Shown here: piece by piece, positions 1 to 56,745 of the stretch | Position numbering within the stretch: the first letter of the stretch is position 1 | Layout of the letters: every line of letters begins with the position of its first letter | Source: Thermoleophilia bacterium | GTDB taxonomy: Bacteria; Actinomycetota; Thermoleophilia; Miltoncostaeales; Miltoncostaeaceae | Length of the DNA: 64,000 nt | Direction of reading: 5' to 3' | Assembly (NCBI GenBank): GCA_016780995.1 | Contig: JADHKZ010000001.1 | Span: forward strand, 22,473-86,472 | Notes under the pieces: generated by a model | What the model saw: the letters and a program-made list of their open reading frames with translations, nothing else | What the model was told of the DNA's origin: nothing | The model's database searches: none | Made by a program: the position numbers and the translations under genes

Positions 1-1521
1 AAGCGCCCGGTGCATGGGCGGCAGCAGGTTGTCGGTGCCGCGGGCGGCGGAACGCACGGCGTCCAGCGCCGCGGACACCTCGGCCTGGTCGCGCGACGCG
101 CGCAGGTCGGCCAGGCGCTGCACCTGGGCCCGCTCGATGGCGGGGTCGATCTTGAGGATGTCGATCTGGGTGTCCTCCGGCTCGGCCTGCACGTTGATGC
201 CCACCACCTTGCGCTCGCCGCTCTCCATCGCCTTGTGCCAGCGGTAGGCGGCGTCGGCGATCTCGTCGCGCATGAACTCGATGCTGTCCACCGCACCGCC
301 GCGCTCGTCGATGCGGGTGATCAGGTCGTTCGCCCGCTCCTCGATCTGCGCGGTGAGCGACTCCACCATCCAGCCACCGGCCATGGGGTCGGCGCTATCG
401 GTGATGCCGGTCTCCTCGGCGATCACCTGTTGCGTGCGCAGGGCCAGCTTGGCCGACTGCTCGGTGGGCAGGGCCAGGGCCTCGTCGTAGCCGTTGGCGT
501 GGATCGACTGCGCCCCGCCTAGCGCCGCCGAAAGCACCTGCAGCGCCACGCGCACCACGTTGTTGTCGGGCTGCTGGGCCGTGAGCGTGGACCCGCCGGT
601 CTGCGCGTGGAAGCGCAGGGCCATGGACTTGGGGTCGGTGGCGCCGAACCGCTCGCGCATGATGCGCGCCCACAGGGTGCGCGCCGCGCGGAACTTGGCC
701 ACCTCCTCCATGAAGTTCGAGTGGGCGTTGAAGAAGAACGACAGCCGGGGGGCGAAGCGGTCCACGTCCAGCCCGGCGTCCACGGCGGCCTGCACGTAGG
801 CGATGCCGTCGGCCAGGGTGAACGCCACCTCCTGCACCGCGGTGGAGCCGGCCTCGCGGATGTGGTACCCGCTAATGGAGATGGTGTTGAAACGCGGCAT
901 CTCGGCGGCGCAGTACGCGAACGTGTCGGTGGTCAGCCGCATGCTGGCGTGCGGCGGGAAGATGTAGTTGCCGCGGGCGATGTACTCCTTGAGCACGTCG
1001 TTCTGGATGGTGCCCCGCAGCTGGTCGGCCGCCACGCCCTGCGACTCGCCCACCAGCCGGTACAGCAGCAGCAGCACGGCCGCGGGCGCGTTGATGGTCA
1101 TGCTGGTGGACACCTCGTCCAGCGGGATTCCGTCGAACACCCGCAGCATGTCGTCCAGCGAGTCGATGGCCACGCCCACGCGCCCCACCTCGCCCAGCGC
1201 CCGCGGGTCGTCCGAGTCCATGCCCAGCTGCGTGGGCAGGTCGAACGCCATCGACAGCCCCGGCGCGCCGTTGGCCAGCAGGTACCGGAAGCGCTCGTTG
1301 GTCTCCTCGGCGGTGGCGAAGCCCGCGTACTGCCGCATGGTCCACGGCTTCTCGCGGTACATCGTGCGGTAGGGGCCGCGGGTGAACGGGTACTCGCCGG
1401 GCTCGCCCAAGGCGCCCGCCAGGTCCAGCGCCGCGGTGTCGTCCGCGTGGTAGACCGGCTCGATCTCGATTCCGGAGTCGGTGCTCCGGGCTCCGCCCGC
1501 GGCGTCGGTGCTGCTGCTCAC
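1..1521 (-). CDS. methylmalonyl-CoA mutase family protein, large substrate-binding domain (partial; 3' end lies beyond the window)
   Basis: My own minus-strand translation from GTG at 1521 reads [10 protein letters not shown]...[63 protein letters not shown]...[26 protein letters not shown]. The frame stays open to base 1. It is missing from the ORF track because no stop falls inside the window. Confidence 0.85.
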
Positions 1522-1606
1522 GCGTCCCCCCAGAAGTCGCGGCACGCTACCAAAACGGGGGTGCCCGCCAGCACGCCCGCGCGGCCGCCGCGATAGCCTC
1601 ACGGGA

Positions 1607-1999
1607 ATGAGCGATCAGGACCGCCGGCTCGATCCGGCCACGGGCCCCGGCGTGGGCGTTATCGACGCCCCCGACCAGGCATCGGACGTCGAGGAGAACC
1701 TCTGGACCGACGACTCCGGCGAGGACCTGCAGGGCTGGTACTGCATCGCCACCGACCCGTGGCCGTGCCCGGCCGAGGGGTGCGGGTTCGTGGCCAACCA
1801 CATCACGGCCGCCCACCTGGTCATCTGCTGGCCGGAGATGGATGATCCCAACCTGCTCACCCACGCGCAGATCGCCAAGGAGGTGGGGCGCAACCCGCGG
1901 GTGGTGGAGTACCAGACCGGCATGGGGCCGGCGTGCTCGTACTACCAGTGGATCGCCGCCGGTCGGCCCGTGCACGGCGTGAGGGCGCAGGACGCCTAG
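1607..1999 (+). CDS. hypothetical small Cys/Trp-rich protein
   Basis: ATG at 1607 inside track ORF 1481..1999 ([10 protein letters not shown]...[18 protein letters not shown]...). G/C dominates third codon positions. No family recognised. Confidence 0.6.
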
Positions 2000-2742
2000 A
2001 GCAGCCGGCGGGCCTTCAGGTCGGCCACCACGGCATTGGAGAGCGTGGTGGCCAGCAGCCCCGTCCTCCTCAGGAACCTGTTGTCCTCGGGCGCGGCGCC
2101 CGCCTCCACCAGCACGCGCGACTGCGCGGTGGTGCGGTAGAAGCCGTAGAAGTGGTTCATCCGCCGGTTGGAATTGGGGGGGATGACCCCGTTGAACCGC
2201 CCCCGGGCCCCGTTGGCACGCGTGAAGATGCGCTTGAGGGCCACTGACACCCGGCGCGCGGTGCCGGCCGACGTGCGCTGCACGGCGGGGCTCACCGTGG
2301 TGGCCGGAGTGCGGTGCGGCGCGCTGTCGGGGTACGGGGTGGGCCTGCCGGTGCCGAAGCCCTGGCCCCGGTAGTAGTTCTCATTGCCGCCGGTGATCGC
2401 GTGCCCCACCATGGCCGCGCCCCCTGCGGAATCGTGGTGGATGCTGATGAACGTGGCGCCACCCACGCCAAGGGGCGTCACGCGCGCGGCCTGCGGCCGG
2501 GCGTCCACGCCGGCGGTCCTTAGTCGCTTCACCATCAGGTCGCGCACGCGCCGGTTGAACTCCGACTCCAGGCCGAACGGGTTGCCCGACGCGCCGGTCT
2601 GGGCCAGGTAGCCCGGCTCGCCGGGGGCCAGGTGCCCGGCCTGCACCAGCACCACGGGCCGTGCGCCCCACGCCGCCGCCGGCGCCAGCACGGCCGCGGC
2701 CACGACCATGGATGCAATGGCTGCGCGCATGCGCCGCAGCAT
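1996..2742 (-). CDS. secreted N-acetylmuramoyl-L-alanine amidase (Amidase_3-like)
   Basis: Track ORF 1996..2781. Signal-like MLRRMRAAIASMVVAAAVLAPAAAWG starts at the ATG at 2742. Zinc-ligand pattern QAGH ... ESEFN ... ISIHHDS fits Amidase_3. Confidence 0.7.
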   Translation of the reverse strand: MLRRMRAAIASMVVAAAVLAPAAAWGARPVVLVQAGHLAPGEPGYLAQTGASGNPFGLESEFNRRVRDLMVKRLRTAGVDARPQAARVTPLGVGGATFISIHHDSAGGAAMVGHAITGGNENYYRGQGFGTGRPTPYPDSAPHRTPATTVSPAVQRTSAGTARRVSVALKRIFTRANGARGRFNGVIPPNSNRRMNHFYGFYRTTAQSRVLVEAGAAPEDNRFLRRTGLLATTLSNAVVADLKARRLL

Positions 2743-2823
2743 GGCAGTGCCCCCGGACCACAACCGCACGGGTCGTTCCACCGGCCCGTGGAGCCCGCAC
2801 CGGGGTGCCCCTATGCTTGCGGC

Positions 2824-3399
2824 GTGAGCGGCCGGTCATCCCTGAACCCCGCCCTCGTCGTGACGGCGGCGCGCATCGCGCTGATCCCGATCGTGATGGT
2901 GCTCATCCTCATCGACGACGAGGGCGGCCGGTACTGGGCCTTCGGCCTCTACGTGGTGGCGGCGGCCACCGACTCGCTGGACGGCTGGCTGGCCCGCTCG
3001 CGAGGCCAGGTGACCGTGGCGGGGGCGTTCCTCGATCCCCTGGCCGACAAGCTGCTGGTGGCGGGCGCGCTGCTCTGCCTCATCGAGGTGGGCGACGTGT
3101 CGGCGTGGATCGCCATGGTCATCATCACCCGTGAGTTCGCGGTCACCGGACTGCGCCTCATCGCCGTGCGCGAGGACCTGGTGATTCCCGCCAGCAACCT
3201 CGGCAAGATCAAGACCCTCAGCCAGAACGTGGCCATCGCGTGGGTCATCCTGAACGTGGCCCCGCAATGGCAGTACGACGCCCTCCTGTACCTGGCGGTG
3301 GCCCTCACCGTCATCTCGGGCGCGTACTACTTCATCATGGCGCGTCGCCGGCTCTTCGAGGGCCGCGTGCCTGCCCCCGACGTCACCGGAGATCCGTGA
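2824..3399 (+). CDS. pgsA: CDP-diacylglycerol--glycerol-3-phosphate 3-phosphatidyltransferase
   Basis: CDP-alcohol phosphatidyltransferase motif DSLDGWLARSRGQVTVAGAFLDPLADKL. GTG at 2824 removes the Arg/His-rich junk N-terminus of track ORF 2632..3399. Confidence 0.85.
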   Translation: MSGRSSLNPALVVTAARIALIPIVMVLILIDDEGGRYWAFGLYVVAAATDSLDGWLARSRGQVTVAGAFLDPLADKLLVAGALLCLIEVGDVSAWIAMVIITREFAVTGLRLIAVREDLVIPASNLGKIKTLSQNVAIAWVILNVAPQWQYDALLYLAVALTVISGAYYFIMARRRLFEGRVPAPDVTGDP

Positions 3400-4004
3400 A
3401 CCAGGCCCTCGCACTCGTCATCGCCTACCTGCTGGGCTCCATACCCTTCGCCTACCTGGCGGGTCGCCTGAACGGCGTGGACCTGCGCACCGTGGGCAGC
3501 GGCAACCTCGGAGCCACCAACGTGTTCCGCACGCTGGGGCGCACCGTGGGGATCGTGGTGATGGTGCTGGACATCGCCAAGGGCGCGGCCGCGGTGCTCA
3601 TCGCCCAGTGGCTGGCCGGGGGGTCCTGGTGGCCCATCGCCGCGGGCGCGCTGGCCATCCTGGGCCACGTGTTCCCCGTGTGGACCGGGTTCAAGGGGGG
3701 CAAGGGCGTGGCCGTGGGCGCCGGCGCGCTCATCGGCCTGGTGCCGTTGGCCAGCGCCGTGCTCATCGTCCTCTGGGTGCTGCTGGTGCTGCTCACCCGC
3801 TACGTATCGGTGGCCAGCATCGTGGCCGCCCTGGCCGCCGCCCCGCTGGCGTGGCTCTTCGGCGCGCCGTGGCCCTACGTGGCCTTCATCGCCCTCGCCG
3901 CGTTGTTCGTCATCGTCAAGCACGGCGAGAACATCCAGCGGCTGCTGAACGGCACGGAGAACCGCATCCACCTGGGCGGCAAGGGCACGCCGGACCCCAC
4001 CTGA
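3396..4004 (+). CDS. plsY: glycerol-3-phosphate acyltransferase PlsY
   Basis: VNQALALVIAYLLGSIPFAYLAGRL...GSGNLGATNVFRTLG...FKGGKGVA. The GTG at 3396 overlaps the pgsA stop (GTGA). Confidence 0.9.
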   Translation: MNQALALVIAYLLGSIPFAYLAGRLNGVDLRTVGSGNLGATNVFRTLGRTVGIVVMVLDIAKGAAAVLIAQWLAGGSWWPIAAGALAILGHVFPVWTGFKGGKGVAVGAGALIGLVPLASAVLIVLWVLLVLLTRYVSVASIVAALAAAPLAWLFGAPWPYVAFIALAALFVIVKHGENIQRLLNGTENRIHLGGKGTPDPT

Positions 4005-4019
4005 CGGCGCCCGGGTGGT

Positions 4020-4132
4020 GCGCTACCGGGGTATTCCCTCCGGTCGCGAATCGGAATCGCGAGTCCTCCGGGGCTTCGCCCCGGAGGCCAGGGCGTCGTT
4101 TCGTCTTCCCTCCGGGATTACCCCGGTAGCGC
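4020..4132 (+). repeat. conserved structured element, copy A (candidate ncRNA, 3'UTR element or complex terminator)
   Basis: Shares two identical 27-nt blocks (4034-4060 and 4091-4117) with 55773-55881. Closing stem is 19 bp with 1 mismatch (4020-4038 with 4114-4132). Inner hairpin is 4065-4073 with 4079-4087. Confidence 0.6.
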
Positions 4133-4145
4133 TCATCCGTCCGGG

Positions 4146-5132
4146 TCAGGCAGGGCCGTCGAGCCACTCCGGCAGGGTGATGTGGCGGCTCGCGTGCGGT
4201 CCACCGGCCACCTCGGCACGCATCTCGCCCAGCAGGCCGTGGCGCTCGGCCTCGACGTCGTGGGTGTGGATGGTCTCGTAGTTCTCCTGGTGCGCCGACA
4301 CGAAGGCCTCGTCGGGCAGGTCGGGGAACCGGGCGATGACGCCGGCCACCATCTCGCGCACGGAGTCCTCCACGAACCGCGGGCGGCGGTGGGCCTTGTC
4401 CACCACGTAGAGCTCGTCGGGGCGCTTGAGCAGCTCGTAGATCTCCGACGACATGCCGTCCTCGACGATCCCGATGAGGGCGTCGGCGGGGATGTCCACC
4501 GGGCCGGGTGCACCCACCAGCAGGGTGCCGCGGGCGCGCTGGTTGTGGGTGGCGATCGGCACCCGCGCGACGATGCGGTCGATCTCCTCGGGGCTGAAGC
4601 CGTCATCGGCCAGCGCCGCCTCGGCCTGCTCGCGCACCAGTCCCTGCGCGCACGGGCAGGCGTTCATGCCCTGCGCCGACACGCCCACGGCGCGTCGGCT
4701 GCTGCCCGGGCGGGCGGCGGCCGTGCCGATGAGGCCGTACATCTCCTGGGTGGCCACGTCGGTCACCGGCGTGCGCTTCTCCACCGGGTACCGGGCGCGG
4801 ATGGTGGCCATGCCGCGCAGCGCGCCCTGGCGCTCCACCACCCGGCGGGCGATGTTCTCGGCCAGGGCCTCGATGGCCACGGGCTCGCCGATGAGCACGG
4901 CGTCGATGGCCTCGTTCACCTCCTCCTCGAAGCGCGACATGTGCACGCCCTTCTGGTCGGGGTCGAGGTCCACCACGCACTCCACGGTGGCGTCCATGTA
5001 GTGCTCCCCGCCGCCGAACGCCAGGCGGATGGCCTTGGCCGACCGGCTCACGCCGGCCCGCGACAGGCCGATGCGGGTGGCGGGCGATGTGTCCTGCAGG
5101 TCCTCCGAGAACTCCAGGGGGTGGCTGGTCAT
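4146..5132 (-). CDS. folE2: GTP cyclohydrolase IB (FolE2/MptA family)
   Basis: MTSHPLEFSEDLQD...GVHMSRFEE...GMNACPCAQ...IATHNQRARG, typical of the FolE2 family. The ATG at 5132 overlaps the Grx stop (ATGA). Confidence 0.85.
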   Translation of the reverse strand: MTSHPLEFSEDLQDTSPATRIGLSRAGVSRSAKAIRLAFGGGEHYMDATVECVVDLDPDQKGVHMSRFEEEVNEAIDAVLIGEPVAIEALAENIARRVVERQGALRGMATIRARYPVEKRTPVTDVATQEMYGLIGTAAARPGSSRRAVGVSAQGMNACPCAQGLVREQAEAALADDGFSPEEIDRIVARVPIATHNQRARGTLLVGAPGPVDIPADALIGIVEDGMSSEIYELLKRPDELYVVDKAHRRPRFVEDSVREMVAGVIARFPDLPDEAFVSAHQENYETIHTHDVEAERHGLLGEMRAEVAGGPHASRHITLPEWLDGPA

Positions 5133-5467
5133 CAGGCGGGCACCATCTTCTGGAGCTCGCCGTCCTGGTAGAGCTCGGTCACGATGTCGCACCCGCCCAC
5201 CAGCGTGCCGTCCACGAACAGCTGCGGGATCGTGGGCCAGTCCGACCAGCCCGACAGCACCATGCGCACGCGCGGGTCCTCCAGGATGTTGCGGGAGCCG
5301 TACTCCACGCCCAGGTGGCCGAGGATCTGCACCACGCGCATGGAGAACCCGCATGCGGGAGCGTCGGGCGTGCCCTTCATGTAGAGGAACACGCGATTGG
5401 CGGCCACCTCCGCCTTGATCTGCTCGAGGATCTGCTCGTCGGTCATCGTGGTGACGTCGCTCATCAT
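5132..5467 (-). CDS. grxD: monothiol glutaredoxin (Grx4/GrxD family, CGFS active site)
   Basis: VFLYMKGTPDAPACGFSMRVVQIL...WPTIPQLFVDGTLVGGCDIV. The ATG at 5467 overlaps the BolA stop (ATGA). Confidence 0.9.
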   Translation of the reverse strand: MMSDVTTMTDEQILEQIKAEVAANRVFLYMKGTPDAPACGFSMRVVQILGHLGVEYGSRNILEDPRVRMVLSGWSDWPTIPQLFVDGTLVGGCDIVTELYQDGELQKMVPA

Positions 5468-5697
5468 GCCTCCGGGGCTCGCGTCTTCAGCGCGAGGGCG
5501 TGGATCTGGCCGTCGTCGATGCGCGCCTGGACGGCGGCATACACGGCCTTGTGCTGGTCGATGCGGCTCATTCCCTCGAACTGGGGCGCCACCACGATCG
5601 CGGCCAGGTGATCCCCGCCGCCGTGGTCCTGCACCTCCACCTGCGCGCCCGGGAGGGCGTCTTCGATCATCTTCCGGAGCTCGTCGAGGTCGGCCAT
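5464..5697 (-). CDS. BolA family protein
   Basis: Track ORF 5464..5697: MADLDELRKMIEDALPGAQVEVQDHGGGDHLAAIVVAPQFEGMSRIDQHKAVYAAV, BolA-like. Confidence 0.85.
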   Translation of the reverse strand: MADLDELRKMIEDALPGAQVEVQDHGGGDHLAAIVVAPQFEGMSRIDQHKAVYAAVQARIDDGQIHALALKTRAPEA

Positions 5698-5715
5698 GGC
5701 GGGGAGGATAGGGCG

Positions 5716-7725
<2,010 letters not shown>

Positions 7726-7771
7726 GTGGCTGATGGTCGCACCGAGGCCGCGCGCGGCGCCCGCCGACCGG

Positions 7772-8167
7772 TCAGTGCACCAGCGCAACCCCTGCGGCTG
7801 TCGCGGCACCCCTCAGCCCGCGATCCAGGCTGGCCAGCGGGATGCCGCGGCGCAGCGCGATGGAGAGGTACGACGCGTCGTACGGCGTGATCCCGTGGCG
7901 GCCGGCCAGGGCGAGCAGCCATCCGAGCGCCGGCGGGGCATCGTCCTCGACCGGGTCCAGGCCTTCGATCAACCGGACGGCCGTGGCCAGGCCGGCCTCG
8001 TCCACGCGCCCGCGCCGGAGCGCCGTGTCAAGCGCGTTCGCCACCTCGAAGCGCCAGAGGGCGGGCACGATGGCCGCCCCGGATCGGAACGCCGACACGA
8101 TCGGCACCACCGGATCCTCCGGCTCGTCGTCCATCACCAGCACCATGGTGGCCGAGGCGTCGAGCAC
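7772..8167 (-). CDS. vapC: PIN-domain toxin (VapC-like)
   Basis: [10 protein letters not shown]... with the acidic PIN positions ([27 protein letters not shown]). Lies 8 nt downstream of the antitoxin gene. Confidence 0.8.
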
Positions 8168-8175
8168 GAAGTCGC

Positions 8176-8460
8176 TCAGTACCGCCGCCCCTCACGTATC
8201 CACGCCACGATCTCCTCGTGGCTGGCCCGTATTCCCTTGCCGCTTGCGCGAAACGCCATGAGGTCGGCGATCCATTGCTCGCGTGTGGGCCGCGGGGCCT
8301 CGGGCGGCACGATGCGGGCGACCGGACGCCCGTGGCTGGTGACCACGATCTCCTCGCCTTCGCCTGCCCGCCGCAGCATCTCGCTGAACTTCGCCTTCGC
8401 CTCGGCCACCGGCACGTGCGTGGCGGTGGAGGGGGTGGCAGATGAGGGCGTGGTGGCCAT
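8176..8460 (-). CDS. Phd/YefM-type antitoxin
   Basis: VPVAEAKAKFSEMLRRAGEGEEIVVTSHGRPVARIVP is a typical Phd/YefM N-terminal fold. Sits directly upstream of the PIN gene. Confidence 0.8.
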   Translation of the reverse strand: MATTPSSATPSTATHVPVAEAKAKFSEMLRRAGEGEEIVVTSHGRPVARIVPPEAPRPTREQWIADLMAFRASGKGIRASHEEIVAWIREGRRY

Positions 8461-8466
8461 GCGGTC

Positions 8467-8472
8467 ATTCTA
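8467..8472 (-). promoter_or_regulatory. candidate -10 box (TAGAAT) giving a leaderless antitoxin mRNA
   Basis: The minus strand reads TAGAAT-GACCGC-ATG, so the hexamer ends 6 nt before the antitoxin ATG at 8460. No convincing -35. Confidence 0.3.
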
Positions 8473-8533
8473 GTCACCGTCTGGTCATATCTCCCGCACG
8501 GCACCGTGACGGCACTGCACTACCGTTGGCGCC

Positions 8534-9631
8534 GTGAGCGACTCCTTCATGCAGGCCGCGGGTGGCATGCCCCCGCGTGGCGACGCGGCCCGGTGGCGCC
8601 AGGTGGCGCTGCTGGCGGTGGCCGCGTCGCTGGGCCACCGCGGCGCGCGCCCGTCGCTGGCCGCGGCGCTGCAGTCGCTGGACCACCCCGTGGAGGCGGG
8701 CCGCGCCCTTGCCGCCGCGCCCGATGATGATCCCTGGACCCGCTGGTGGGCGGTGCTGGCCGTGGGCCAGGGGGAGGGGGCCGAGGGGCTGGACCGGGCG
8801 CTGGCGTCCGCGCGCCCGGTTGCGCCCGAGGGACCCGATGGCCGCGACGTGGCGCGGCGGCTCGACGACCTGGCCGCGGAGCTCGCCGCCCTGCGCGGTC
8901 AGGGGGGCGAGGCCCGCTTCGCCCTGTTGGGCCATCGCGCCACCCCGGAACGCCGGGTGCTGCTGGCGGGCAGGTCGTCGGCGGCGTTCATCGTGGACCC
9001 GTCATGGGACGCCCTTTCGCTGGTGCGGCTTGCGCCGTCCGACGGCCCCAGCATGTCGGGTTCGGCGCACCACTCGCTCGACGAGGTCATCGCGCTGGTG
9101 CGCCAGGGCCAGTCGGGCCAGGGCCGGCCGGTGCCCGGCGACGCCCCGTCGCCCGCCGACCCCCAGGTGATGCTCGAGCTGCTCCGCAGCGACAGCGGAT
9201 CACGCGACCGGGCCCTGGCGTCGCTGGCCGAGGAGGTGCGCGAGGAGCGCGCGCGCCTGGCCGAGCGGCAGGAGGCACTGGACGACGAATGGGGCGAGAT
9301 CCAGGCCGAGAAGGCGCGGCTTCGCACGCTTGCCCAGGGCCTGCTGGAGAAGCAGCAGGCCGGCGGCGTGACCACCCCCACCAGCGCCGCCGAGGCCGCT
9401 GAGTTGCTGGGGCTGGGGCCGCGCCCCGACGCCGTCGAGGTGGAGCGCGCATGGCGCCGCGCGGTGGCCCGGTGCCACCCGGACCGCACGGCCGAACTCC
9501 ACCCCGAGCTGCAGAAGCGTGCCGCCGACATGACCGTGGCCCTCAACGCCGCCCGCGAGATCCTGCTGGCGGCTACTCCCAGTCGTCCTCCGCGGCAAGG
9601 CGGGCGTACTCGCGCCACTCGTCCAGGATGA
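8534..9631 (+). CDS. hypothetical protein with coiled-coil region and C-terminal J domain (HPD motif)
   Basis: C-terminus reads AAELLGLGPRPDAVEVERAWRRAVARCHPDRTAELHPELQKRAADMTVALNAAREIL. The preceding REERARLAERQEALDDEWGEIQAEKARL looks like coiled coil. Confidence 0.6.
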   Translation: MSDSFMQAAGGMPPRGDAARWRQVALLAVAASLGHRGARPSLAAALQSLDHPVEAGRALAAAPDDDPWTRWWAVLAVGQGEGAEGLDRALASARPVAPEGPDGRDVARRLDDLAAELAALRGQGGEARFALLGHRATPERRVLLAGRSSAAFIVDPSWDALSLVRLAPSDGPSMSGSAHHSLDEVIALVRQGQSGQGRPVPGDAPSPADPQVMLELLRSDSGSRDRALASLAEEVREERARLAERQEALDDEWGEIQAEKARLRTLAQGLLEKQQAGGVTTPTSAAEAAELLGLGPRPDAVEVERAWRRAVARCHPDRTAELHPELQKRAADMTVALNAAREILLAATPSRPPRQGGRTRATRPG

Positions 9632-9821
9632 CCCGCACGTCCCGGCCGCTCACCTCCGGGTGCAGCCGGGTGATCAGGTCCACGGCCATGCCGTCGGCGT
9701 TCCGCACGGGCGGGTCGCCCAGTTCCTTCAGCACGGTCCACACGTCGTCCTCGTGCAGCCGGGGGCGCTCGCCCAGGATGAAGGCCGCGGCCTCGCCCAG
9801 GTCCAGCGGGTCGTCATCCAT
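9573..9821 (-). CDS. hypothetical small acidic protein
   Basis: [38 protein letters not shown]... (82 aa). Its ATG at 9821 overlaps the stop of the upstream acyl-CoA ligase gene (ATGA). Confidence 0.55.
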   Translation of the reverse strand: MDDDPLDLGEAAAFILGERPRLHEDDVWTVLKELGDPPVRNADGMAVDLITRLHPEVSGRDVRVILDEWREYARLAAEDDWE

Positions 9822-11452
9822 CAGGCGCTGATCTTCGGGCCGCTCTTCACGCGGTCGTACACCCCGTCGTCCAGCGGCAGTTCCCGCAGCTCCACCTTGC
9901 GCACGCGCTCGGTGGGGGTCTTGGGGAGGTGCTCCATGAACCGCACGTACCGGGGCACCGCGAAGTAGGGCATCTTGTCGCTGCAGTAGGTGAGCAGCTC
10001 GTGCGGGTCGGGCATGCCCTCGCGGGGCACCACGCAGATCAGGATCTCCTGCTCCGACCCCGCGCCCTCGCCAGCCGCCACGCCCACCGCCGCGGCCTCC
10101 AGCACGCCGGGGTGCGACGCCACGATGCGCTCCACCTCCATCGACGACACGTTCTCGCCACGCCGCCGGATGTAGTCCTTCACGCGGTCCTTGAAGTACA
10201 GGTAGCCGTCCTCGTCCATCTCGCCCAGGTCGCCCGTGTGAAGCTTGAGGTTCTTGAAGTCCTCGGCGGTCTTCTCGGGCATCCCGGCGTAGGCGCGCAT
10301 CACGATGTTGGGCAGCTTCATGTCCACCACGATCTCGCCGGGCATCCCGGGGGGCAGCGGCCGGTCTGTGCCCGGCTCCACCACGCTCACCTCGAACCCC
10401 GGGCTGGCCTTGCCGCATGAGCCCGGCTTCTCCACCCCGGGCGGAACGTAGGTGACCATGCCGGTCTCGGTGAGCCCGTAGCCCTCGTGCCACCGGATGC
10501 CGAAGCGCTCCTTGAACTCGTGGTAGATGTCCTTGGGCGCCGGCATGGCCATGATGCGCTCCACCGAGTGGGCGCGGTCGAACTCACCGGGCTCGGTATT
10601 CCAGATGAAGTAGTTCATGGCGCTGACGGTGTTGAGGATCGTGGCCCCGCACTCGGTGACCTCGCGCCAGAAGTTGGTGGATGAGTACCGCGCCGACAGC
10701 TGGATGCGCGCGCCGGCGATGAGCGCCGGGTAGCAGTTGAGCACCTGCGCGTTGCTGTGGAAGAGGGGCAGGCAGGTGTAGAAGACGTCGTCCCCGGTGA
10801 CCCCGCACACCTCGATGTAGGTGCGGCCCGAGAAGTAGTCCGACGCGTGCTGCTTGATCACGCCCTTGCTCCGCCCGGTGGTGCCCGACGTGAACATGAT
10901 CCGCGCGTCGTCCACCCAGGTCACGTCCACGCCCGGGTCGGAGTCGGGCGCGTCGTCCAGCACGCCGAAGGGCTCGAACGCCACGGCCGGGTTGGGCCCG
11001 TGCGGCGATCCCGACTCCCACACGAACACGTGCTCCAGCACCGGCAGCTCGGTCGCCACGTGATCCAGGCGGTCCAGGAGGTCGTCGGAGATCACCAGGA
11101 ACCGCGACTCGGGCAGGTTGATGACCCACGACAGGAAGTCGCCGCGGTACGCCAGGTTGATGGGCGACTGCACGCCGCCGGCGCGCAGGATGCCGAACCA
11201 CAGCGCTACCTGGTCCACCGAGTTGGGCATGAGCGTGCTCACGCACTCGCCCTTCTGCAGTCCGCGGGCGATGAGGGCGTTGGCGATGCGGCTGGCGCGG
11301 GCGTCGATCTCGCCGTAGGTCACCCACTCGCCGTCGCCGAACCGGATGTACGGCCGGTCGGGATGCGCCTCGGCGCGCTCGCGGAGGATGCGGGGGAGCA
11401 CCCACCCCGTCACGTCCTCCTTGGTGTACCAGTCACTCCACTCGGCGGTCAT
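9821..11452 (-). CDS. AMP-dependent synthetase/ligase (acyl-CoA synthetase family)
   Basis: Track ORF 9821..11452. AMP-binding motif [14 protein letters not shown], then ...GYGLTETG... and ...[21 protein letters not shown]. Confidence 0.85.
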
Positions 11453-11484
11453 GCACGCAGGCTACCGGGGCGGCCAAAGCACTG

Positions 11485-11493
11485 TGGTACGGT
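11485..11493 (+). promoter_or_regulatory. candidate extended -10 promoter element for rpmG (TGgTACGGT)
   Basis: TGn plus a TAnnnT hexamer 31 nt upstream of the rpmG GTG. It lies inside an 18-nt block that matches the rpsL upstream region at 16 of 18 positions. Confidence 0.35.
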
Positions 11494-11524
11494 GCCGGAC
11501 CCGCCAACGACCGGAGGCTTCCCT

Positions 11525-11689
11525 GTGGGCAAGACCGGCCAGCGCATCGCCGTGACCCTGGCATGCCAGGACTGCAAGAGGCGCAACTACCAGTCCAATA
11601 AGAGCAGGCGCAACACGCCCGACCGCGTGTCGCTCTCGAAGTTCTGCCGCTGGTGCGGCCGCCACACGGAGCACCGCGAGACGCGGTAG
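11525..11689 (+). CDS. rpmG: 50S ribosomal protein L33 (zinc-ribbon form)
   Basis: [57 protein letters not shown] at 11525 is preceded by GGAGGC. Confidence 0.9.
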
Positions 11690-11700
11690 GGGCAGTACCT

Positions 11701-11773
11701 AGGGTCGTAGCTCAATTGGTAGAGCACCGGTCTCCAAAACCGGGGGTTGGGGGTTCGAGTCCCTCCGGCCCTG
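11701..11773 (+). tRNA. tRNA-Trp (anticodon CCA)
   Basis: Hand-folded cloverleaf. Acceptor AGGGTCG/CGGCCCT, anticodon stem CCGGT/ACCGG with loop CTCCAAA, T-loop TTCGAGT. The rpmG-secE position is classic. Confidence 0.95.
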
Positions 11774-11812
11774 TCCAGCAGATCGCGAAAGACTGAGAAG
11801 GCCGCCAGCCAC

Positions 11813-12196
11813 ATGGCACGAATCCGCCCGTCAAAGGGCCAGAGCTCAGGGGAACCAGGCCCCGACGAAACCGGCCCCGGCGGGGCGGAGCCGCCGCCCG
11901 TACCCAGCAGGCGGCGCAACAAGTCGTCCTCGGGGGGCGGGCAGCCCGCGGCGCAGCCGCGCCCGCGCCAGCAGGCCAAGAGCGAGAAGGCTGGTTCGGT
12001 CACCAAGTCGGTCCAGGAGAGCCGCAGCCGCCGCTACGTGGGCGAGGTGGTCACCGAGCTCAAGAAGGTCACCTGGCCCAACCGGGCCCAGCTGCTCCAG
12101 GCAACCGCCGTGGTGCTCATCTTCGTCGCCGTGGTCACCGTGTACCTCGGCCTCATCGACTTCCTCATGGCCGCCCTCGTCGACGCCCTGTTCTAG
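11813..12196 (+). CDS. secE: preprotein translocase subunit SecE (long N-terminal tail)
   Basis: C-terminus VGEVVTELKKVTWPNRAQLLQATAVVLIFVAVVTVYLGLIDFLM is the SecE TM segment. Start at ATG 11813. Confidence 0.85.
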   Translation: MARIRPSKGQSSGEPGPDETGPGGAEPPPVPSRRRNKSSSGGGQPAAQPRPRQQAKSEKAGSVTKSVQESRSRRYVGEVVTELKKVTWPNRAQLLQATAVVLIFVAVVTVYLGLIDFLMAALVDALF

Positions 12197-12205
12197 GAGA
12201 GTTAC

Positions 12206-12748
12206 TTGCTGCGCTGGTACGTCATCAACACCTACTCGGGCCACGAGAACAAGGTGCGCGCCAACATCCTCCGCCGGGTGGAGAGCCAGCACCGCCGCCG
12301 GTCCATCCGCGAGGTCGTCGTCCCCACCGAGCAGGTGGTGGAGACCAACAAGGACGGCCAGAAGGTGCAGACCGAGCGGCGCACGCTGCCCGGCTACGTG
12401 CTGGTGAACATGGACATGGGTGACGACGACGCCTGGTCGCTCATCAAGGACACGCCCGGCGTCACCGGCTTCGTGGGCGCCACCAAGCACGACGACCACC
12501 GCCCGCCGCCGCTCACTCGCTCCGAGGTGGACCGCCTGCTGCACACCCAGACCGAGACCCGCGTCAAGGTGCGCGCCGAGTTCACGGTGGGCGAGAGCGT
12601 CAAGGTCATCTCGGGCCCGCTGTCGGACTTCACCGGCGAGATCGCCGAGATCAACGCCGAGCAGGGGCGCGTGAAGGTGCTGGTATCCATCTTCGGTCGC
12701 GAGACGCCGGCCGAGCTGTCGTTCGACCAGGTGAAGAAGCTCACGTAG
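12206..12748 (+). CDS. nusG: transcription termination/antitermination factor NusG
   Basis: LRWYVINTYSGHENKVRANI... with a KOW-like C-terminus GESVKVISGPLSDFTGEIAEIN. TTG start. Confidence 0.95.
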   Translation: MLRWYVINTYSGHENKVRANILRRVESQHRRRSIREVVVPTEQVVETNKDGQKVQTERRTLPGYVLVNMDMGDDDAWSLIKDTPGVTGFVGATKHDDHRPPPLTRSEVDRLLHTQTETRVKVRAEFTVGESVKVISGPLSDFTGEIAEINAEQGRVKVLVSIFGRETPAELSFDQVKKLT

Positions 12749-12800
12749 GCACCGCCGACGCGGGGGCCGGCGGCAGCCGCTGGCCATTCGCGCGCGCGGA

Positions 12801-12808
12801 TGTATGAT
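12801..12808 (+). promoter_or_regulatory. candidate -10 region for rplKA (TGTATGAT)
   Basis: TGTATGAT followed by CCCGGG, about 45 nt upstream of the rplK ATG. The same octamer occurs upstream of rpoB. Confidence 0.3.
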
Positions 12809-12852
12809 CCCGGGCCGCTCGAGACGGCCCCGTTCCGGAAGGTCACGCCCAG

Positions 12853-13278
12853 ATGGCGAAGAAGGTCCTGCAGGTCATCAAGCTCCATATCCCCGCAGGG
12901 GGAGCCTCGCCGGCGCCGCCGGTGGGTCCGGCCCTGGGTGCCGCGAGCATCAACATCATGGACTTCTGCAAGGCGTTCAACGCCGAGACGCAGAACCTGG
13001 GCGGCGTCATCACGCCCGTCGAGATCTCGGTCTACGAGGACCGCTCGTTCTCGTTCATCACCAAGACCCCGCCGGCCGCGGTGCTCATCAAGGAGGCCAT
13101 CAAGCTTCCCAAGGGCTCGCCCGAGTCGCACCGCGTGAAGGTGGGCACCATCACGCGGGCCCAGCTGCAGCAGATCGCCGAGACCAAGATGCAGGACCTG
13201 AACGCGAACGACATCGACGCCGCCATCACCATGATCGCGGGCACCGCCCGGTCGATGGGCGTCACGGTGGAGGGCTAG
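12853..13278 (+). CDS. rplK: 50S ribosomal protein L11
   Basis: [43 protein letters not shown]. Confidence 0.97.
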
Positions 13279-13280
13279 GA

Positions 13281-13997
13281 ATGGCCAAGCACGGCAAGCG
13301 CTACGACGACGCCAAGGCGCAGATCAACCCCGAGGGCAACTACCACCCACTCGAGGCCTTCCGCCTCCTGGTGGGCCAGGAAGTGGCCCGCTTCGACACC
13401 ACGGTGGAGGCCCACTTCCGGCTGGGCGTGAACGTGCGCCACGCCGAGGAGCAGCTGCGCGGCACCATCGCGCTGCCGCACGGCACCGGCCGCGCGGTCA
13501 CGGTGGCCGTGTTCGCCGAGGGCGAGAAGGCCCGTGAGGCCGAGGAGGCCGGCGCGCAGGTGGTGGGCGGCGAGGACCTGGTCAAGAAGGTGGAGGAGGG
13601 CTTCACCGACTTCGACGTGGCCATCGCCACCCCCGACATGATGGGCGCCGTGGGCCGCCTTGGCCGCGTGCTCGGCCCGTCGGGCAAGATGCCCAACCCC
13701 AAGACCGGCACCGTCACGTTTGACGTGGGCAAGGCCGTGGCCGACGTCATCGGCGGCAAGGTGGAGTACCGCACCGACCGCTCCGGCATCGTGCATATCG
13801 GCCTGGGCAAGAAGTCGTTCACGGCCGAGCAGCTCACCGAGAACTACGCCGCCATCCTGGATGAGATCCTCCGGGCCAAGCCGGCGTCCACCAAGGGCAA
13901 GTACATCAAGTCGATCAGCGTGGCCCAGACCATGGGACCCGGCATCGACATCGACCCGCAGTACACGCAGAACCTGCTCGAGGAGGCCACCGCCTAG
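13281..13997 (+). CDS. rplA: 50S ribosomal protein L1
   Basis: [30 protein letters not shown]...[11 protein letters not shown]...[14 protein letters not shown] at 13281 inside track ORF 12804..13997. Confidence 0.97.
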
Positions 13998-14911: not shown

Positions 14912-14913
14912 CC

Positions 14914-15300: not shown

Positions 15301-15312
15301 CGATCAAGCCTC

Positions 15313-15349
15313 GGTGACAGTCACCGCTTCGTACCCGGTGACAGTCACC
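15313..15349. repeat. two identical 13-bp perfect palindromes GGTGACAGTCACC, 24 bp centre to centre (operator-like)
   Basis: Copies at 15313-15325 and 15337-15349, each with arms GGTGAC/GTCACC around a central A. Located 13 nt after the rplL stop. Confidence 0.6.
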
Positions 15350-15360
15350 ATGTCTTACGC

Positions 15361-15397: not shown

Positions 15398-15409
15398 ACC
15401 TGCAGGTGC

Positions 15410-54971: not shown

Positions 54972-55748
54972 ATGCCCGCGCTGCGGCTCGACATCGAGTA
55001 CGACGGCGCGGGCTTCGCGGGCTGGGCAGAGCAGCCGGGCCAGAGAACGATCGAGGGCGTCCTCCGGGACGCCCTCGAGGTCGTTCTGGGCCGACGCCCC
55101 GACGTGCGCGTGGCGGGCCGCACCGACGCAGGGGTGCACGCCACCGCCCAGGTGGTGAGCCTGCAGGTGCCTGCCGGCACAGGCGCCCCGCACCGTGAGG
55201 CCGCGGCCGACCCCGACCGCCTGCGCCGGTCCCTCAACGGCCTGCTGCCGGACGACGTGGCTGTGCGGGCGGCATCGCACGCGCCCGAGGGCTTCGACGC
55301 CCGGGCCCATGCCACCAGCCGCGCCTACGACTACCGCATCCTCACGGGCCCGCCGTCGCCGCTCCGGCGCGCGCGCACCCTGCGCCACACGGGCCCGCCG
55401 CTCGACCGCGCGGCCCTTGACGCCTGCGCTGCCGCCACGGTGGGCCAGCACCGCTTCACCGCCTTCACCCCAACCGACACCCAGCACGTGTTCTTCGACC
55501 GCACGGTCATCGAGTGCGCGTGGTGCGAGGGGGGAGAGGCGCGCGATGAGCTCATCCTGCGCATCGAGGCCGACGCCTTCCTCCGCCACATGGTGCGCGT
55601 GCTGGTGGGCAGCATGCTGGAGGTGGGCCGCGGCAACCGCGACGTCGCCTGGTTCACCGCCCTGCTCCACGGGGCCCCCCGCTCCGCCGCCGGCCGCACG
55701 GCCCCGGCGCACCCCCTCACCCTGGTGGCGGTGCGCTACCCGGAATAG
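54972..55748 (+). CDS. truA: tRNA pseudouridine(38-40) synthase TruA
   Basis: LRLDIEYDGAGFAGWAEQPGQRTIEGVL...VAGRTDAGVHATAQVVSL...FLRHMVRVLVGSMLEVG. Confidence 0.93.
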   Translation: MPALRLDIEYDGAGFAGWAEQPGQRTIEGVLRDALEVVLGRRPDVRVAGRTDAGVHATAQVVSLQVPAGTGAPHREAAADPDRLRRSLNGLLPDDVAVRAASHAPEGFDARAHATSRAYDYRILTGPPSPLRRARTLRHTGPPLDRAALDACAAATVGQHRFTAFTPTDTQHVFFDRTVIECAWCEGGEARDELILRIEADAFLRHMVRVLVGSMLEVGRGNRDVAWFTALLHGAPRSAAGRTAPAHPLTLVAVRYPE

Positions 55749-55772: not shown

Positions 55773-55881
55773 GGGCCGAGGGTGTTCCCTCCGGTCGCGA
55801 ATCGGAATCGCAAGGTCGCCGGGGCCGTGCCCCGGCGACCTGGGCGTCGTTTCGTCTTCCCTCCGGGAACACCCCCGGCCC
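55773..55881 (+). repeat. conserved structured element, copy B
   Basis: Identical 27-nt blocks at 55785-55811 and 55842-55868. Closing stem is 17 bp with 1 mismatch (55773-55789 with 55865-55881). Inner 11-bp hairpin is 55814-55824 with 55830-55840. Confidence 0.6.
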
Positions 55882-55938: not shown

Positions 55939-56745
55939 GTGAGGATCCTGGTGACCAACGACGACGGCGTGGACGCGCCGGGCATCCTGGCCCTGCGGCA
56001 GGCGGTGGACCACCTGGGCGAGGTGTTCGTCATCGCGCCCGATGCCAACCGCAGCGCCATCGCGCGCGGGATCACCATCCACGACCCACTGGTGGTGGAC
56101 GACGTGCAGATGTCGGACGGCCACCCGGCCCATGCCGTCAGCGGCACCCCCGTGGACTGCGTGCGGCTGGGGGCGCTTGGGCTCATCGGCGATCCGCCGG
56201 ATGTGGTGGTGAGCGGCGCCAACCTCGGGCTCAACCTTGGTGACGACGTCACCTACTCGGGCACGGTGGCCGCGGCGCTGGAGGGCGTGATGCTGGGCAT
56301 CCCCGCCATCGCGGTGAGTCAGGACGCCCTTGGCGGGGGCAGCGGCCCGGGGCTCGACTACGACTTCTCGGCGGCCGTGGCGTTCGCCGCCAAGCTGGTG
56401 CCGCTGGCATGCGAGGAGCAGTTCCCTCGCCACGTGATCTTCAACGTCAACGGGCCCGGCGTGCGGCCGGCCGACCTGGCCGGGGCCAGGGTCACGCGAC
56501 TGGGCCGCCGGGTGTACGACGACTCCCTGGTGCTCGAGGGCTCGCAGGGCAGCTCACGGCACTTCCGCATCTACGGCGAGCCCATGAGCCACGACAAGCA
56601 GCCCGGCACGGACCTGTCGGCCATTGACGACAACTTCCTGTCGGTCACCCCCCTGCACTTCGAGCTCACCGACTTCCCCGGCATCGACCGCATGGAGAGC
56701 TGGCGGCTGGACGAGATGCTGCAGTCGGTGGCCGGGGTGTCCTGA
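55939..56745 (+). CDS. surE: 5'/3'-nucleotidase SurE
   Basis: VRILVTNDDGVDAPGILALRQAV...VIAPDANRSA...VVSGANLGLNLGDDVTYSGTVAAALEG. Confidence 0.93.
   Translation: MRILVTNDDGVDAPGILALRQAVDHLGEVFVIAPDANRSAIARGITIHDPLVVDDVQMSDGHPAHAVSGTPVDCVRLGALGLIGDPPDVVVSGANLGLNLGDDVTYSGTVAAALEGVMLGIPAIAVSQDALGGGSGPGLDYDFSAAVAFAAKLVPLACEEQFPRHVIFNVNGPGVRPADLAGARVTRLGRRVYDDSLVLEGSQGSSRHFRIYGEPMSHDKQPGTDLSAIDDNFLSVTPLHFELTDFPGIDRMESWRLDEMLQSVAGVS

What the first reader, a model, noticed from the sequence alone, without database searches (positions are those of the whole stretch)
4020..4132. Unrecognised ~110-nt structured element present twice, with compensatory base changes (copy A, after plsY)
Two same-strand copies occur, at 4020-4132 and 55773-55881. 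Each begins 15-25 nt after the stop codon of a + strand gene. Two 27-nt blocks are identical in both copies: TTCCCTCCGGTCGCGAATCGGAATCGC (4034-4060 and 55785-55811) and GGGCGTCGTTTCGTCTTCCCTCCGGGA (4091-4117 and 55842-55868). They are separated by exactly 30 nt in both. That spacer is a hairpin whose sequence differs but whose pairing is kept: CCTCCGGGG-CTTCG-CCCCGGAGG versus GGTCGCCGGGG-CCGTG-CCCCGGCGACC. Aligned column by column, this includes two double compensatory substitutions (C-G to T-A and T-A to G-C). The whole unit is closed by a long stem whose distal half is unrelated between copies yet complementary within each copy: GCGCTACCGGGGTATTCCC/GGGATTACCCCGGTAGCGC versus GGGCCGAGGGTGTTCCC/GGGAACACCCCCGGCCC. 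Sequence divergence with preserved pairing points to selection on a folded transcript (or single-stranded DNA). The core also carries a tandem GAATCG-GAATCG. It carries the CU-rich motif UUCCCUCCGG twice, which is complementary to the GGAGG-type ribosome-binding sites used throughout this window. That would fit an RBS-sequestering sRNA or 3'UTR-derived regulator. I do not recognise it as any riboswitch, ribozyme or Rfam family.
Basis: partly seen in the sequence, partly recalled or inferred. Interest (0 to 1): 0.72.

Follow-up and report, generated by a model that had tools for sequence, protein, structure and literature searches.

The report
Palindromic intergenic DNA repeat family
The two ~110-nt hairpins are real and belong to an undescribed family of hairpin-forming repeats between housekeeping genes of uncultured Thermoleophilia; the family behaves like a REP/REPIN-type DNA repeat, not like a strand-specific regulatory RNA.

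Summary
Both window copies belong to a family of about 50 copies (42 unique). I recovered it from Miltoncostaeaceae-like Thermoleophilia MAGs and from metagenomes.

- **Architecture:** two near-invariant blocks flank a variable hairpin (P3). A site-specific, almost perfect outer stem (P1, mean 19 bp) encloses the whole.
- **Pairing:** covariation in P1 and P3 is overwhelming. It carries no RNA signature: 760 Watson-Crick pairs, 6 G·T and 3 A·C.
- **Sites:** the element sits at a handful of junctions between housekeeping genes. These are 3' ends, convergent junctions and divergent promoter regions.
- **Dynamics:** it forms tandem arrays. Relatives with abutting or overlapping genes lack it ("empty sites"). 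Its asymmetric core is flipped at orthologous sites in related genomes, yet stays intact.
- **Negative results:** there is no Rfam match, and no transposase lies within ~2.8 kb of the element at any site. The CU-rich "anti-RBS" motif is not conserved.

My best reading is a REPIN-like palindromic DNA repeat whose core is recognised by an unidentified trans-acting protein. Any transcript hairpin would be a secondary effect, such as a terminator or stabiliser. I rate it a new variant of a known kind, of moderate interest.

The parts
4020..4132 (+). Copy A, whole element. It lies between the convergent genes plsY (+) and folE2 (-).
   Evidence: Model R1 scores 128.9 bits on the + strand against 37.9 on the - strand. 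Sequence.
4020..4038 (+). Copy A, P1 5' arm. The outer 14 nt are site-specific. The inner TTCCC is family-conserved.
   Evidence: Inverted repeat I11, 19 nt, 95% complementary. P1 covariation.
4034..4060 (+). Copy A, conserved block 1 (TTCCCTCCGG-TCGCGAATCGGAATCGC). GGTCGCGAATCGGAA is near-invariant across the family.
4065..4087 (+). Copy A, P3 hairpin (CCTCCGGGGC-TTC-GCCCCGGAGG). It is variable and compensated.
4091..4117 (+). Copy A, conserved block 2 (GGGCGTCGTTTCGTCTTCCCTCCGGGA). In the rod model it pairs imperfectly with block 1.
4114..4132 (+). Copy A, P1 3' arm.
55773..55881 (+). Copy B, whole element. It lies between truA and surE, both on the + strand.
   Evidence: Model R1 scores 113.3 bits on the + strand against 29.1 on the - strand. 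Sequence.
55773..55789 (+). Copy B, P1 5' arm (GGGCCGAGGGTGTTCCC).
55785..55811 (+). Copy B, conserved block 1.
55814..55840 (+). Copy B, P3 hairpin (GGTCGCCGGGGC-CGT-GCCCCGGCGACC).
55842..55868 (+). Copy B, conserved block 2.
55865..55881 (+). Copy B, P1 3' arm (GGGAACACCCCCGGCCC).
3378..4004 (+). Flanking gene plsY. Its stop lies 15 nt before copy A.
   Evidence: Pfam PF02660, E=7.5e-54.
4146..5120 (-). Flanking gene folE2, convergent with plsY. Its stop lies 13 nt after copy A.
   Evidence: Pfam PF02649, E=8.1e-59.
54972..55748 (+). Flanking gene truA.
   Evidence: Pfam PF01416.
55939..56745 (+). Flanking gene surE. It starts 57 nt after copy B.
   Evidence: Pfam PF01975. 100% identical to P0001.

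Best explanation
The element is one member of a low-copy family of hairpin-forming (quasi-palindromic) extragenic DNA repeats. The family is specific to a Miltoncostaeaceae-like clade of Thermoleophilia. The closest analogue is REP/REPIN-type elements.

**Shown**
- The unit is a rod-like hairpin of about 45-50 bp. A site-specific outer stem encloses two near-invariant, mutually imperfectly complementary blocks and a variable tip hairpin.
- Copies occupy gene junctions that are empty in relatives.
- Copies amplify in tandem.
- Their P3 sequences resemble other copies in the same lineage more than orthologous copies elsewhere.
- The asymmetric core flips between its inverted arms over evolutionary time.

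**Inferred**
- Complementarity of the arms is maintained at the DNA level. This could be selection for a hairpin or cruciform, arm-to-arm correction by template switching or recombination between the inverted arms, or both.
- The invariant asymmetric core is the recognition site of a conserved trans-acting protein. That protein could be a RAYT/HUH-like or other DNA-hairpin-binding enzyme, or a host factor. Such a partner would explain why the core stays intact whichever strand is transcribed.
- When transcribed, the element yields a very stable hairpin. On the + strand the core resembles this genome's own terminators (GC hairpin followed by UCGUUUCGUCUU). Termination, insulation or mRNA 3'-end protection is therefore a likely secondary effect, independent of orientation.
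For: - **Family and distribution.** An exact 18-mer scan of 185,579 species genomes found about 20 true loci in 11 Thermoleophilia/Miltoncostaeaceae/'Actinobacteria' MAGs (some carry evidently wrong bin labels such as Bifidobacterium), several at contig ends. A metagenome scan with the other block found about 20 more, and block 2 was intact in them without having been selected for. The covariance model recovered diverged array members.
- **Structure.** RNAalifold gives a single rod. 94% of cells are paired, 24 of 41 pairs have double changes, 0 of 500 shuffles reach this, and the slid controls pair at 43-52%.
- **DNA-like pairing.** In P1 of 42 unique copies there are 760 Watson-Crick pairs, 6 G·T, 3 A·C and 28 other. 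Changes are mostly GC<->CG.
- **Orientation flips with an intact core.** At truA-surE the element is sense in the window, L032, L028, L018, L009 and L015, and antisense in L013 and L008. At plsY|folE2 it is on the plsY strand in the window and L077-79, and on the folE2 strand in L050, L067, L016 and L064. L050 is 94.6% identical to the window over 13.4 kb, and the element is by far the least conserved stretch of that alignment.
- **Empty sites.** plsY and folE2 overlap by 4 nt in the freshwater clade (L083/84) and are 11 nt apart in L087. truA and surE overlap in M. marina. They are 23 nt apart in L098 and 109 unstructured nt apart in L096.
- **Tandem arrays.** Arrays of 1-4 units with a 137-nt period lie upstream of sucC, with decayed end units.
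- **Similarity follows lineage, not site.** P3-region identity is 0.86 between different sites within the freshwater clade. It is 0.74 for the same site in different clades and 0.73 for different site and clade.
- **A second family.** An unrelated palindrome family occupies the same plsY|folE2 junction in L080 and L085, again with a flipped core inside conserved stems.
- **Published REPIN features that match.** Two invariant inverted ends, a less conserved hairpin spacer with compensatory changes, and tandem clusters (PMC3116915).
Against: - No RAYT, transposase or integrase lies within ~2.8 kb of the element at any of the 7+ sites. A genome-wide search was not possible.
- Copy number looks low: at most 3 loci or 7 copies per MAG by exact 18-mer. 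REPIN populations usually number tens to hundreds.
- Sites are stable across roughly genus- or family-level divergence. SurE is 81% identical and DNA about 72% identical between the window and L028. The core is invariant over that distance. This argues for a host-level function and against a purely selfish repeat.
- The variable outer stem outside the conserved blocks has no counterpart in described REPINs.
- The two invariant G·U pairs of the core rod, and the three single-sided changes seen (U->C at a G·U pair, C->U twice), all keep pairing on the + strand only. That is a weak hint of an RNA or single-strand constraint on the + strand.
- No expression data exist.
Confidence: 0.5

Rival explanations
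1. Host-selected RNA hairpin with a structural function only. It would act as a (bidirectional) intrinsic terminator or insulator, or as a 3'-end stabiliser, placed between tightly packed genes. The core would be an A-rich tract, then a GC hairpin, then a U-rich tract. The outer stem would be an extra clamp.
For: - Most copies sit 5-25 nt after a stop codon on the same strand (plsY, truA, glyA, pgi, ilvN) or between convergent genes.
- This genome's own terminators are 14-18 bp GC hairpins with weak U tails, for example 38922-38954 followed by UCGUUUUCCCC. That tail resembles the UCGUUUCGUCUUCCC that follows P3.
- A hairpin works in either orientation, which tolerates the flips.
Against: - It does not explain why about 40 nt of core sequence are invariant across lineages whose DNA is about 72% identical, in either orientation.
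- Copies also lie between divergent genes, where nothing needs terminating. One example is sucC and a 95-aa gene.
- The consensus terminator scan does not call the site.
- RNA polymerase terminating at the core U tract would never transcribe the 3' arm of P1.
Confidence: 0.2
2. Sequence-specific structured RNA: a 3'UTR-derived or independent sRNA whose CU-rich motifs sequester ribosome-binding sites, or another cis or trans RNA regulator.
For: - The conserved core between variable closing stems is the classic look of an ncRNA.
- The invariant G·U pairs and the three one-sided changes preserve pairing only on the + strand.
- Orientation is sense in most unidirectional sites.
Against: - The CU-rich motif varies (TCC, TTC, GTC/GAC, CTC/GAG).
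- Antisense copies at truA-surE (L013, L008) and at the ABC transporter site keep an intact core.
- There is no conserved flanking promoter, and the core has no TA dinucleotide.
- P1 shows no wobble enrichment.
- Tandem arrays have decaying units.
- There is no Rfam family.
Confidence: 0.1
3. Chromosomal protein-binding site with a host function at the DNA level, for example nucleoid or topology organisation as proposed for REP/BIME gyrase and IHF sites. The palindromic TCGCGA-N7-TCGCGA and the rest of the core would be the binding site. The arms would promote cruciform extrusion.
For: - Low copy number, stable orthologous sites and core conservation that is independent of orientation.
- TCGCGA-N7-TCGCGA is a dyad (read from the sequence).
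Against: - No candidate protein is known.
- Presence or absence varies among close lineages, and a different palindrome family occupies the same junction. This looks more like an opportunistic repeat than an essential site.
- Column 48 in the second TCGCGA varies among G, A and C.
Confidence: 0.12
4. Classical MITE: a non-autonomous transposon with terminal inverted repeats and target-site duplications, moved by an IS transposase encoded elsewhere.
For: - Insertion relative to empty sites.
- An internal 8-10-nt direct repeat (TTCCCYYCGG) flanks the ~66-nt inner unit in many copies.
Against: - The outer inverted arms are not conserved between copies, so a transposase could not recognise them as TIRs.
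- No direct repeat flanks P1.
- The internal direct repeat is absent in copies where the triplets are complementary (L051a, L069).
- Its 3' half (CTTCCC) is invariant even where the 5' half differs.
- No transposase lies nearby.
Confidence: 0.05

Closest known systems
[quoted passage not shown]
   Same: - Extragenic.
- About 100 nt.
- Two highly conserved regions in inverted orientation, separated by a less conserved spacer that keeps a hairpin through compensatory changes.
- Folds as a long hairpin or as an alternative 'clover'. The minimum-energy fold of copy A is the clover and that of copy B is the rod.
- Ordered tandem clusters.
- Long-term, mostly vertical persistence.
- Either orientation relative to the neighbouring genes.
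   Different: - Only a handful of loci per genome were seen here, not tens to hundreds.
- A further 13-20 bp site-specific, near-perfect stem lies outside the conserved blocks.
- The two blocks are only about 70% inverted copies of each other.
- No RAYT was found near any copy.
- The host is an uncultured actinobacterial class in which, to my knowledge, no REPIN system has been described.
ERIC, BOX and Correia-type intergenic repeats (enterobacteria, pneumococcus, Neisseria); compared from my own knowledge
   Same: - Imperfect palindromes of 100-150 nt in transcribed intergenic regions.
- They fold into stable RNA hairpins and can act as terminators, RNase III substrates or mRNA stabilisers.
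- Presence or absence is polymorphic between relatives.
   Different: - Those families conserve their terminal inverted repeats between copies, and Correia elements have TA duplications.
- Here the termini are the variable part and the centre is invariant.
Integron attC sites, such as the 123-126 nt VCRs of Vibrio; compared from my own knowledge
   Same: - Imperfect palindromes of similar size.
- They are recognised as folded single-stranded DNA in which conserved imperfections matter.
- Pairing is kept despite sequence change.
   Different: - attC sites conserve the base of the stem (RYYYAAC/GTTRRRY) and vary at the tip, which is the reverse of this element.
- attC sites lie in cassette arrays next to intI, whereas these lie singly between core housekeeping genes.
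Intrinsic (bidirectional) terminators of this genome
   Same: A GC-rich perfect hairpin a few nt after stop codons. The tail after P3 resembles native terminator tails.
   Different: - Native terminators share no sequence with each other.
- This family has about 40 invariant nt, a nested architecture, and copies in non-terminator positions.

Membership tests
REPIN / REP-RAYT system | Two conserved REP units in inverted orientation around a less conserved, hairpin-forming spacer with compensatory changes | tested here: inconclusive
   The two invariant blocks and the compensated spacer are present. Block 1 and the reverse complement of block 2 match only in 11 core pairs plus the 2-bp GG/CC helix, with bulges. 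They are therefore not clearly two copies of one REP.
REPIN / REP-RAYT system | Extragenic location, either orientation | tested here: met
   All ~50 copies are intergenic. Both orientations occur.
REPIN / REP-RAYT system | Population of tens to hundreds of copies per genome | tested here: not met
   At most 3 loci or 7 copies per MAG by exact 18-mer, and 2 copies in 64 kb of the window. The MAGs are fragmented and several hits lie at contig ends, so this is a lower bound.
REPIN / REP-RAYT system | Cognate single-copy RAYT (Y1 transposase) gene, typically flanked by the repeats | not testable with these tools
   None lies within ~2.8 kb of the element at any site (Pfam). Whole genomes of the clade could not be scanned.
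REPIN / REP-RAYT system | Ordered tandem clusters of near-identical units | tested here: met
   Arrays with a 137-nt period, 2-4 units, upstream of sucC. Two units with a 175-nt period after truA in L028.
MITE | Terminal inverted repeats conserved among copies | tested here: not met
   20 of 22 P1 pairs change on both sides between copies.
MITE | Target-site duplication flanking the element | tested here: inconclusive
   There is no direct repeat outside P1. The internal TTCCCYYCGG repeat is present in many copies and absent in others.
Any Rfam family (riboswitch, ribozyme, sRNA) | Covariance-model match at the gathering score | tested here: not met
   Only generic hairpin or miRNA-precursor models appear, far below threshold.
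Strand-specific cis-regulatory or 3'UTR-derived RNA | Fixed orientation relative to the transcription unit at orthologous sites | tested here: not met
   Flipped in L013 and L008 at truA-surE. Antisense at the ABC transporter site.
Anti-RBS (CU-rich) sRNA | Conservation of the CCUCC-type seed | tested here: not met
   The triplet varies among TCC, TTC, GTC/GAC and CTC/GAG.
Canonical intrinsic terminator | GC hairpin immediately followed by a run of U | tested here: not met
   The consensus scan of 1-20000 does not call it. The tail UCGUUUCGUCUU starts 8 nt after P3 proper. The genome's own terminators also mostly fail this consensus.
Integron attC | R''/R' core sites (RYYYAAC...GTTRRRY) at the stem base, inside a cassette array next to intI | tested here: not met
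   The stem bases are variable GC-rich sequence without AAC/GTT. All neighbours are housekeeping genes.

The most novel reading that the evidence does not exclude
The conserved inner unit of about 66-85 nt (blocks plus P3) is a new kind of small mobile element that inserts into the tip of pre-existing GC-rich hairpins, such as terminator-like palindromes at gene junctions.

This reading would explain four things:
- The outer stems are site-specific yet perfect.
- An 8-10-nt direct repeat (CCC-NNN-GG) brackets the inner unit in many copies. Deleting between the repeats would restore a clean hairpin, TTCCC-NNN-GGGAA.
- P3 similarity follows the lineage and not the site.
- Junctions can carry nested palindromes, such as the 254-nt hairpin in L080.

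Such targeting would presumably need an unknown enzyme that recognises hairpins or cruciforms.
Probability: 0.12. Interest if true: 0.75.

Novelty: new variant of a known kind. Interest (0 to 1): 0.42.

Why it matters
- It adds an uncatalogued repeat family from an almost unstudied, uncultured actinobacterial lineage. The family has about 40 nt conserved across roughly genus- or family-level divergence.
- Its architecture is the reverse of classical MITE, ERIC and attC elements: the centre is invariant and asymmetric, and the stems are fast-evolving but always complementary.
- Strong "compensatory covariation" here comes with orientation flips and Watson-Crick-only pairing. This is a cautionary case. 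Covariation alone does not establish an RNA, because palindromic DNA repeats give the same signal.
- If the trans-acting partner is found, the family could reveal a REPIN/RAYT-like or new hairpin-DNA system in streamlined Thermoleophilia genomes.
- The flips at 95% ANI offer a natural system for studying inversion and arm correction in short palindromes.

Tried and rejected
- **Rfam.** The whole window at gathering thresholds, and both copies plus an array at E<=10, gave no family.
- **Plasmid collection.** blastn found nothing.
- **Viral contigs.** No true copy. The 7 block-1 matches are chance, and two that passed a loose regex are AT-rich giant-virus DNA.
- **Literature.** No paper holds the motif or describes repeats in Miltoncostaea.
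- **Three-way-junction model with a P2 hairpin (TCGCGA/TCGCGA).** Rejected in favour of the rod. Columns 44 and 48 vary without compensation, and the rod places them in unpaired positions.
- **Origin of P1 from a terminator already present at the site.** Not supported. The empty plsY|folE2 and truA-surE sites have overlapping or abutting genes and no hairpin.
- **Target-site duplication.** Inconclusive.
- **Homology between family 1 and the L080/L085 palindrome.** The alignment shows none.
- **The 95-aa gene next to the sucC arrays as a cognate factor.** It is only a site-specific neighbour and has no Pfam match.
- **Independent promoter in the core.** There is no TA dinucleotide.
- **The two window copies as ends of a 52-kb mobile element.** Rejected. 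The interval between them is core genome: it holds large conserved ORFs and ends at truA (Pfam), and in relatives truA directly follows rpoA and rplQ.

Full report
**1. Observation**

The two copies are exactly as described.
- Both 27-mers occur twice and only twice in the window, even with 3 mismatches allowed. None is expected by chance.
- The blocks are 30 nt apart in both copies.
- The spacer hairpins differ by two double-compensatory changes.
- The outer stems are unrelated between copies but complementary within each.
- Copy A lies in the 141-nt gap between the convergent genes plsY and folE2. Copy B lies between truA and surE.
- Folding is far better than shuffled sequence on both strands (z -5.2 to -7.8).
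- Rfam has no match.

**2. It is a family**

Two scans recovered about 50 copies, 42 of them unique.
- An exact 18-mer from block 2 was scanned over one genome per species. It gave about 20 true loci in 11 Thermoleophilia, Miltoncostaeaceae or "Actinobacteria" MAGs. Several hits are at contig ends and several are in tandem.
- A 19-mer from block 1 was scanned over metagenomes. It gave about 20 more, and block 2 was intact in them although it had not been selected for.
- A covariance model from 30 copies finds only the two copies in the window. It also picks up diverged array members elsewhere.
- The window organism is a Miltoncostaeaceae-like actinobacterium. Its SurE is 100% identical to a MAG protein and 59% identical to that of Miltoncostaea marina.

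**3. Anatomy**

The consensus fold is one long rod. From the outside in, it consists of:
- P1, averaging 19 bp and reaching 27 bp;
- a 3x3 pyrimidine loop, or a paired triplet in some copies;
- GG/CC;
- GCGAA/UUCGU;
- CGG/UCG;
- CGC/GCG;
- the P3 hairpin.

A clover alternative with local hairpins is nearly iso-energetic. It is the minimum-energy fold of copy A, while the rod is the minimum-energy fold of copy B.

Covariation is overwhelming in P1 (20 of 22 pairs) and in P3 (4 of 6 pairs). Overall 94% of cells are paired, against 43-52% in the slid controls, and 0 of 500 shuffles reach the observed values. The core helices never co-vary because they are invariant. The unpaired columns 44 and 48 vary freely, which favours the rod over a P2 hairpin.

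The pairing looks like DNA pairing. P1 has 760 Watson-Crick pairs, 6 G·T, 3 A·C and 28 other mismatches. Changes are mainly GC<->CG swaps.

The internal triplet is TCC, TTC, GTC/GAC or CTC/GAG.

**4. Where it sits**

The distinct sites are (Pfam; gene maps):
- plsY|folE2, convergent;
- truA to surE;
- glyA to a short-chain dehydrogenase gene;
- pgi to ahcY, with two copies facing each other in L051;
- ilvN to leuA;
- upstream of an ABC transporter ATPase gene, antisense to both neighbours;
- the divergent region between sucC and a 95-aa gene, with arrays of 1-4 units, a 137-nt period and decayed end units.

All neighbours are housekeeping genes. No transposase, RAYT or integrase lies within ~2.8 kb of the element at any site.

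**5. Dynamics**

(a) Empty sites.
- In the freshwater clade, which carries the element at other sites, plsY and folE2 overlap by 4 nt. In L087 they are 11 nt apart.
- truA and surE overlap in M. marina.
- They are 23 nt apart in L098 and 109 unstructured nt apart in L096.

(b) Flips. The model separates the strands by about 90 bits, so orientation calls are unambiguous.
- At truA-surE the core is sense in six lineages and antisense in L013 and L008. In both antisense cases the core is intact.
- At plsY|folE2 the window and L077-79 carry it on the plsY strand. L050, L067, L016 and L064 carry it on the folE2 strand.
- L050 is 94.6% identical to the window over 13.4 kb. The element is the least conserved stretch of that alignment.
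- Independent assemblies agree within each state, so an assembly artefact is unlikely.

(c) A second, unrelated palindrome family fills the same plsY|folE2 junction in L080 and in L085/86. There the whole 254-nt spacer, stop codon to stop codon, is one hairpin (-205 kcal/mol, z -16). Its core is also flipped between lineages, inside conserved stems.

(d) P3 similarity follows the lineage and not the site. Identity is 0.86 between different sites within the freshwater clade. It is 0.74 for the same site across clades and 0.73 for different site and clade. That pattern points to spread or gene conversion among copies.

**6. Interpretation**

A strand-specific RNA regulator is hard to reconcile with three findings: flips that leave the core intact, copies in promoter regions and antisense positions, and the lack of any possible internal sigma-70 -10 box (the core has no TA dinucleotide).

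A purely structural RNA role (terminator or stabiliser) is plausible as a secondary effect. This genome's terminators are 14-18 bp GC hairpins with tails such as UCGUUUUCCCC, much like P3 followed by UCGUUUCGUCUUCCC. But that role cannot explain about 40 invariant nucleotides across lineages whose DNA is about 72% identical.

The combination fits REP/REPIN-type DNA repeats best (PMC3116915). The matching features are:
- an extragenic location;
- a size of about 110 nt;
- two invariant inverted blocks;
- a compensated spacer;
- tandem clusters;
- long persistence;
- similarity that tracks the lineage;
- indifference to orientation.

I therefore infer that a conserved trans-acting protein reads the asymmetric core, probably in hairpin form. 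I also infer that the arms are kept complementary at the DNA level, by selection, by arm-to-arm correction, or both. The flips would be a by-product of recombination or template switching between the arms.

The weak points of this reading are:
- no cognate protein has been found;
- the copy number looks low;
- sites are unusually stable;
- the outer variable stem has no counterpart in described REPINs;
- the core's two invariant G·U pairs and three one-sided changes preserve pairing only on the + strand.

**7. Verdict**

- It is not a member of any Rfam family.
- REPIN membership is unproven: the copy-number feature is not met and RAYT could not be tested.
- It works most like a REPIN/REP element.
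- I rate it a new variant of a known kind, with interest of about 0.4.
- The most novel reading still open is a small element that targets hairpin tips (p about 0.12).

Noticed in passing
L080:2107-2360 and L085:2110-2363 (plsY|folE2 junction in relatives with PlsY 82-85% identical): A second, unrelated palindrome family fills the whole intergenic gap. The 254 nt fold into one nested hairpin (-205 kcal/mol, z -16) that includes both convergent stop codons. Its ~60-nt core is inverted between L080 and L085/86, while the surrounding 24-bp stem is conserved with compensatory changes.
   Followed up: partly
L008:1618-2414: A tacA-tacT type II toxin-antitoxin pair (TacA1 antitoxin plus GNAT toxin) is inserted between truA and the flipped element. 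In L074 the same junction holds FUR and ferritin genes instead. The truA-surE junction is therefore a general hot spot for insertions.
   Followed up: partly
window 28316-28353, 15359-15391, 38922-38954: Ordinary terminator-like hairpins of this genome are perfect 14-18 bp GC stems with 3-5 nt loops and weak U tails. The consensus terminator scan misses them.
   Followed up: partly
window 55925-55941: A conserved TACCAT/TAGCAT (-10-like) box lies about 8 nt upstream of the surE GTG start in the window, L032, L013, L008 and L096. This suggests a leaderless or very short-leader surE mRNA starting just after the element.
   Followed up: no
L041:5630-5665, L069:2639-2700, L018/L028 downstream of the arrays: Truncated or internally deleted units sit at array ends. 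Examples are TCCCGTCG-TTTCGT, where the core appears to have been deleted between two GTCG microhomologies, and GGCGTCGTTTCATCGTCC joined to the next unit. They show slippage and decay inside the arrays.
   Followed up: partly
L087:2104-2120: The convergent plsY and folE2 stops (TAG...CTA) are separated by only 11 nt, which contain the perfect palindrome GGCCGCGGCC. In L083 the two stops overlap (ACTTAGGCG). Genome packing is very tight at the empty sites.
   Followed up: no
window 4067-4069 versus L077, L079 and L050 (P3 stem position 4): The same P3 position is C in the window, A in L077, G in L079 and T in L050. Only the L050 change is compensated. One stem position has therefore mutated repeatedly among genomes whose PlsY is 94-98% identical.
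   Followed up: no
window 11701-11773 and 61180-61253: Two tRNA genes are the only Rfam matches in the window.
   Followed up: no
Record titles of L008, L013, L016, L022, L027: Contigs carrying the element, with Thermoleophilia-like neighbours at about 70% GC, are labelled 'Bifidobacterium' in public MAG records. This looks like mis-binning or mislabelling.
   Followed up: no
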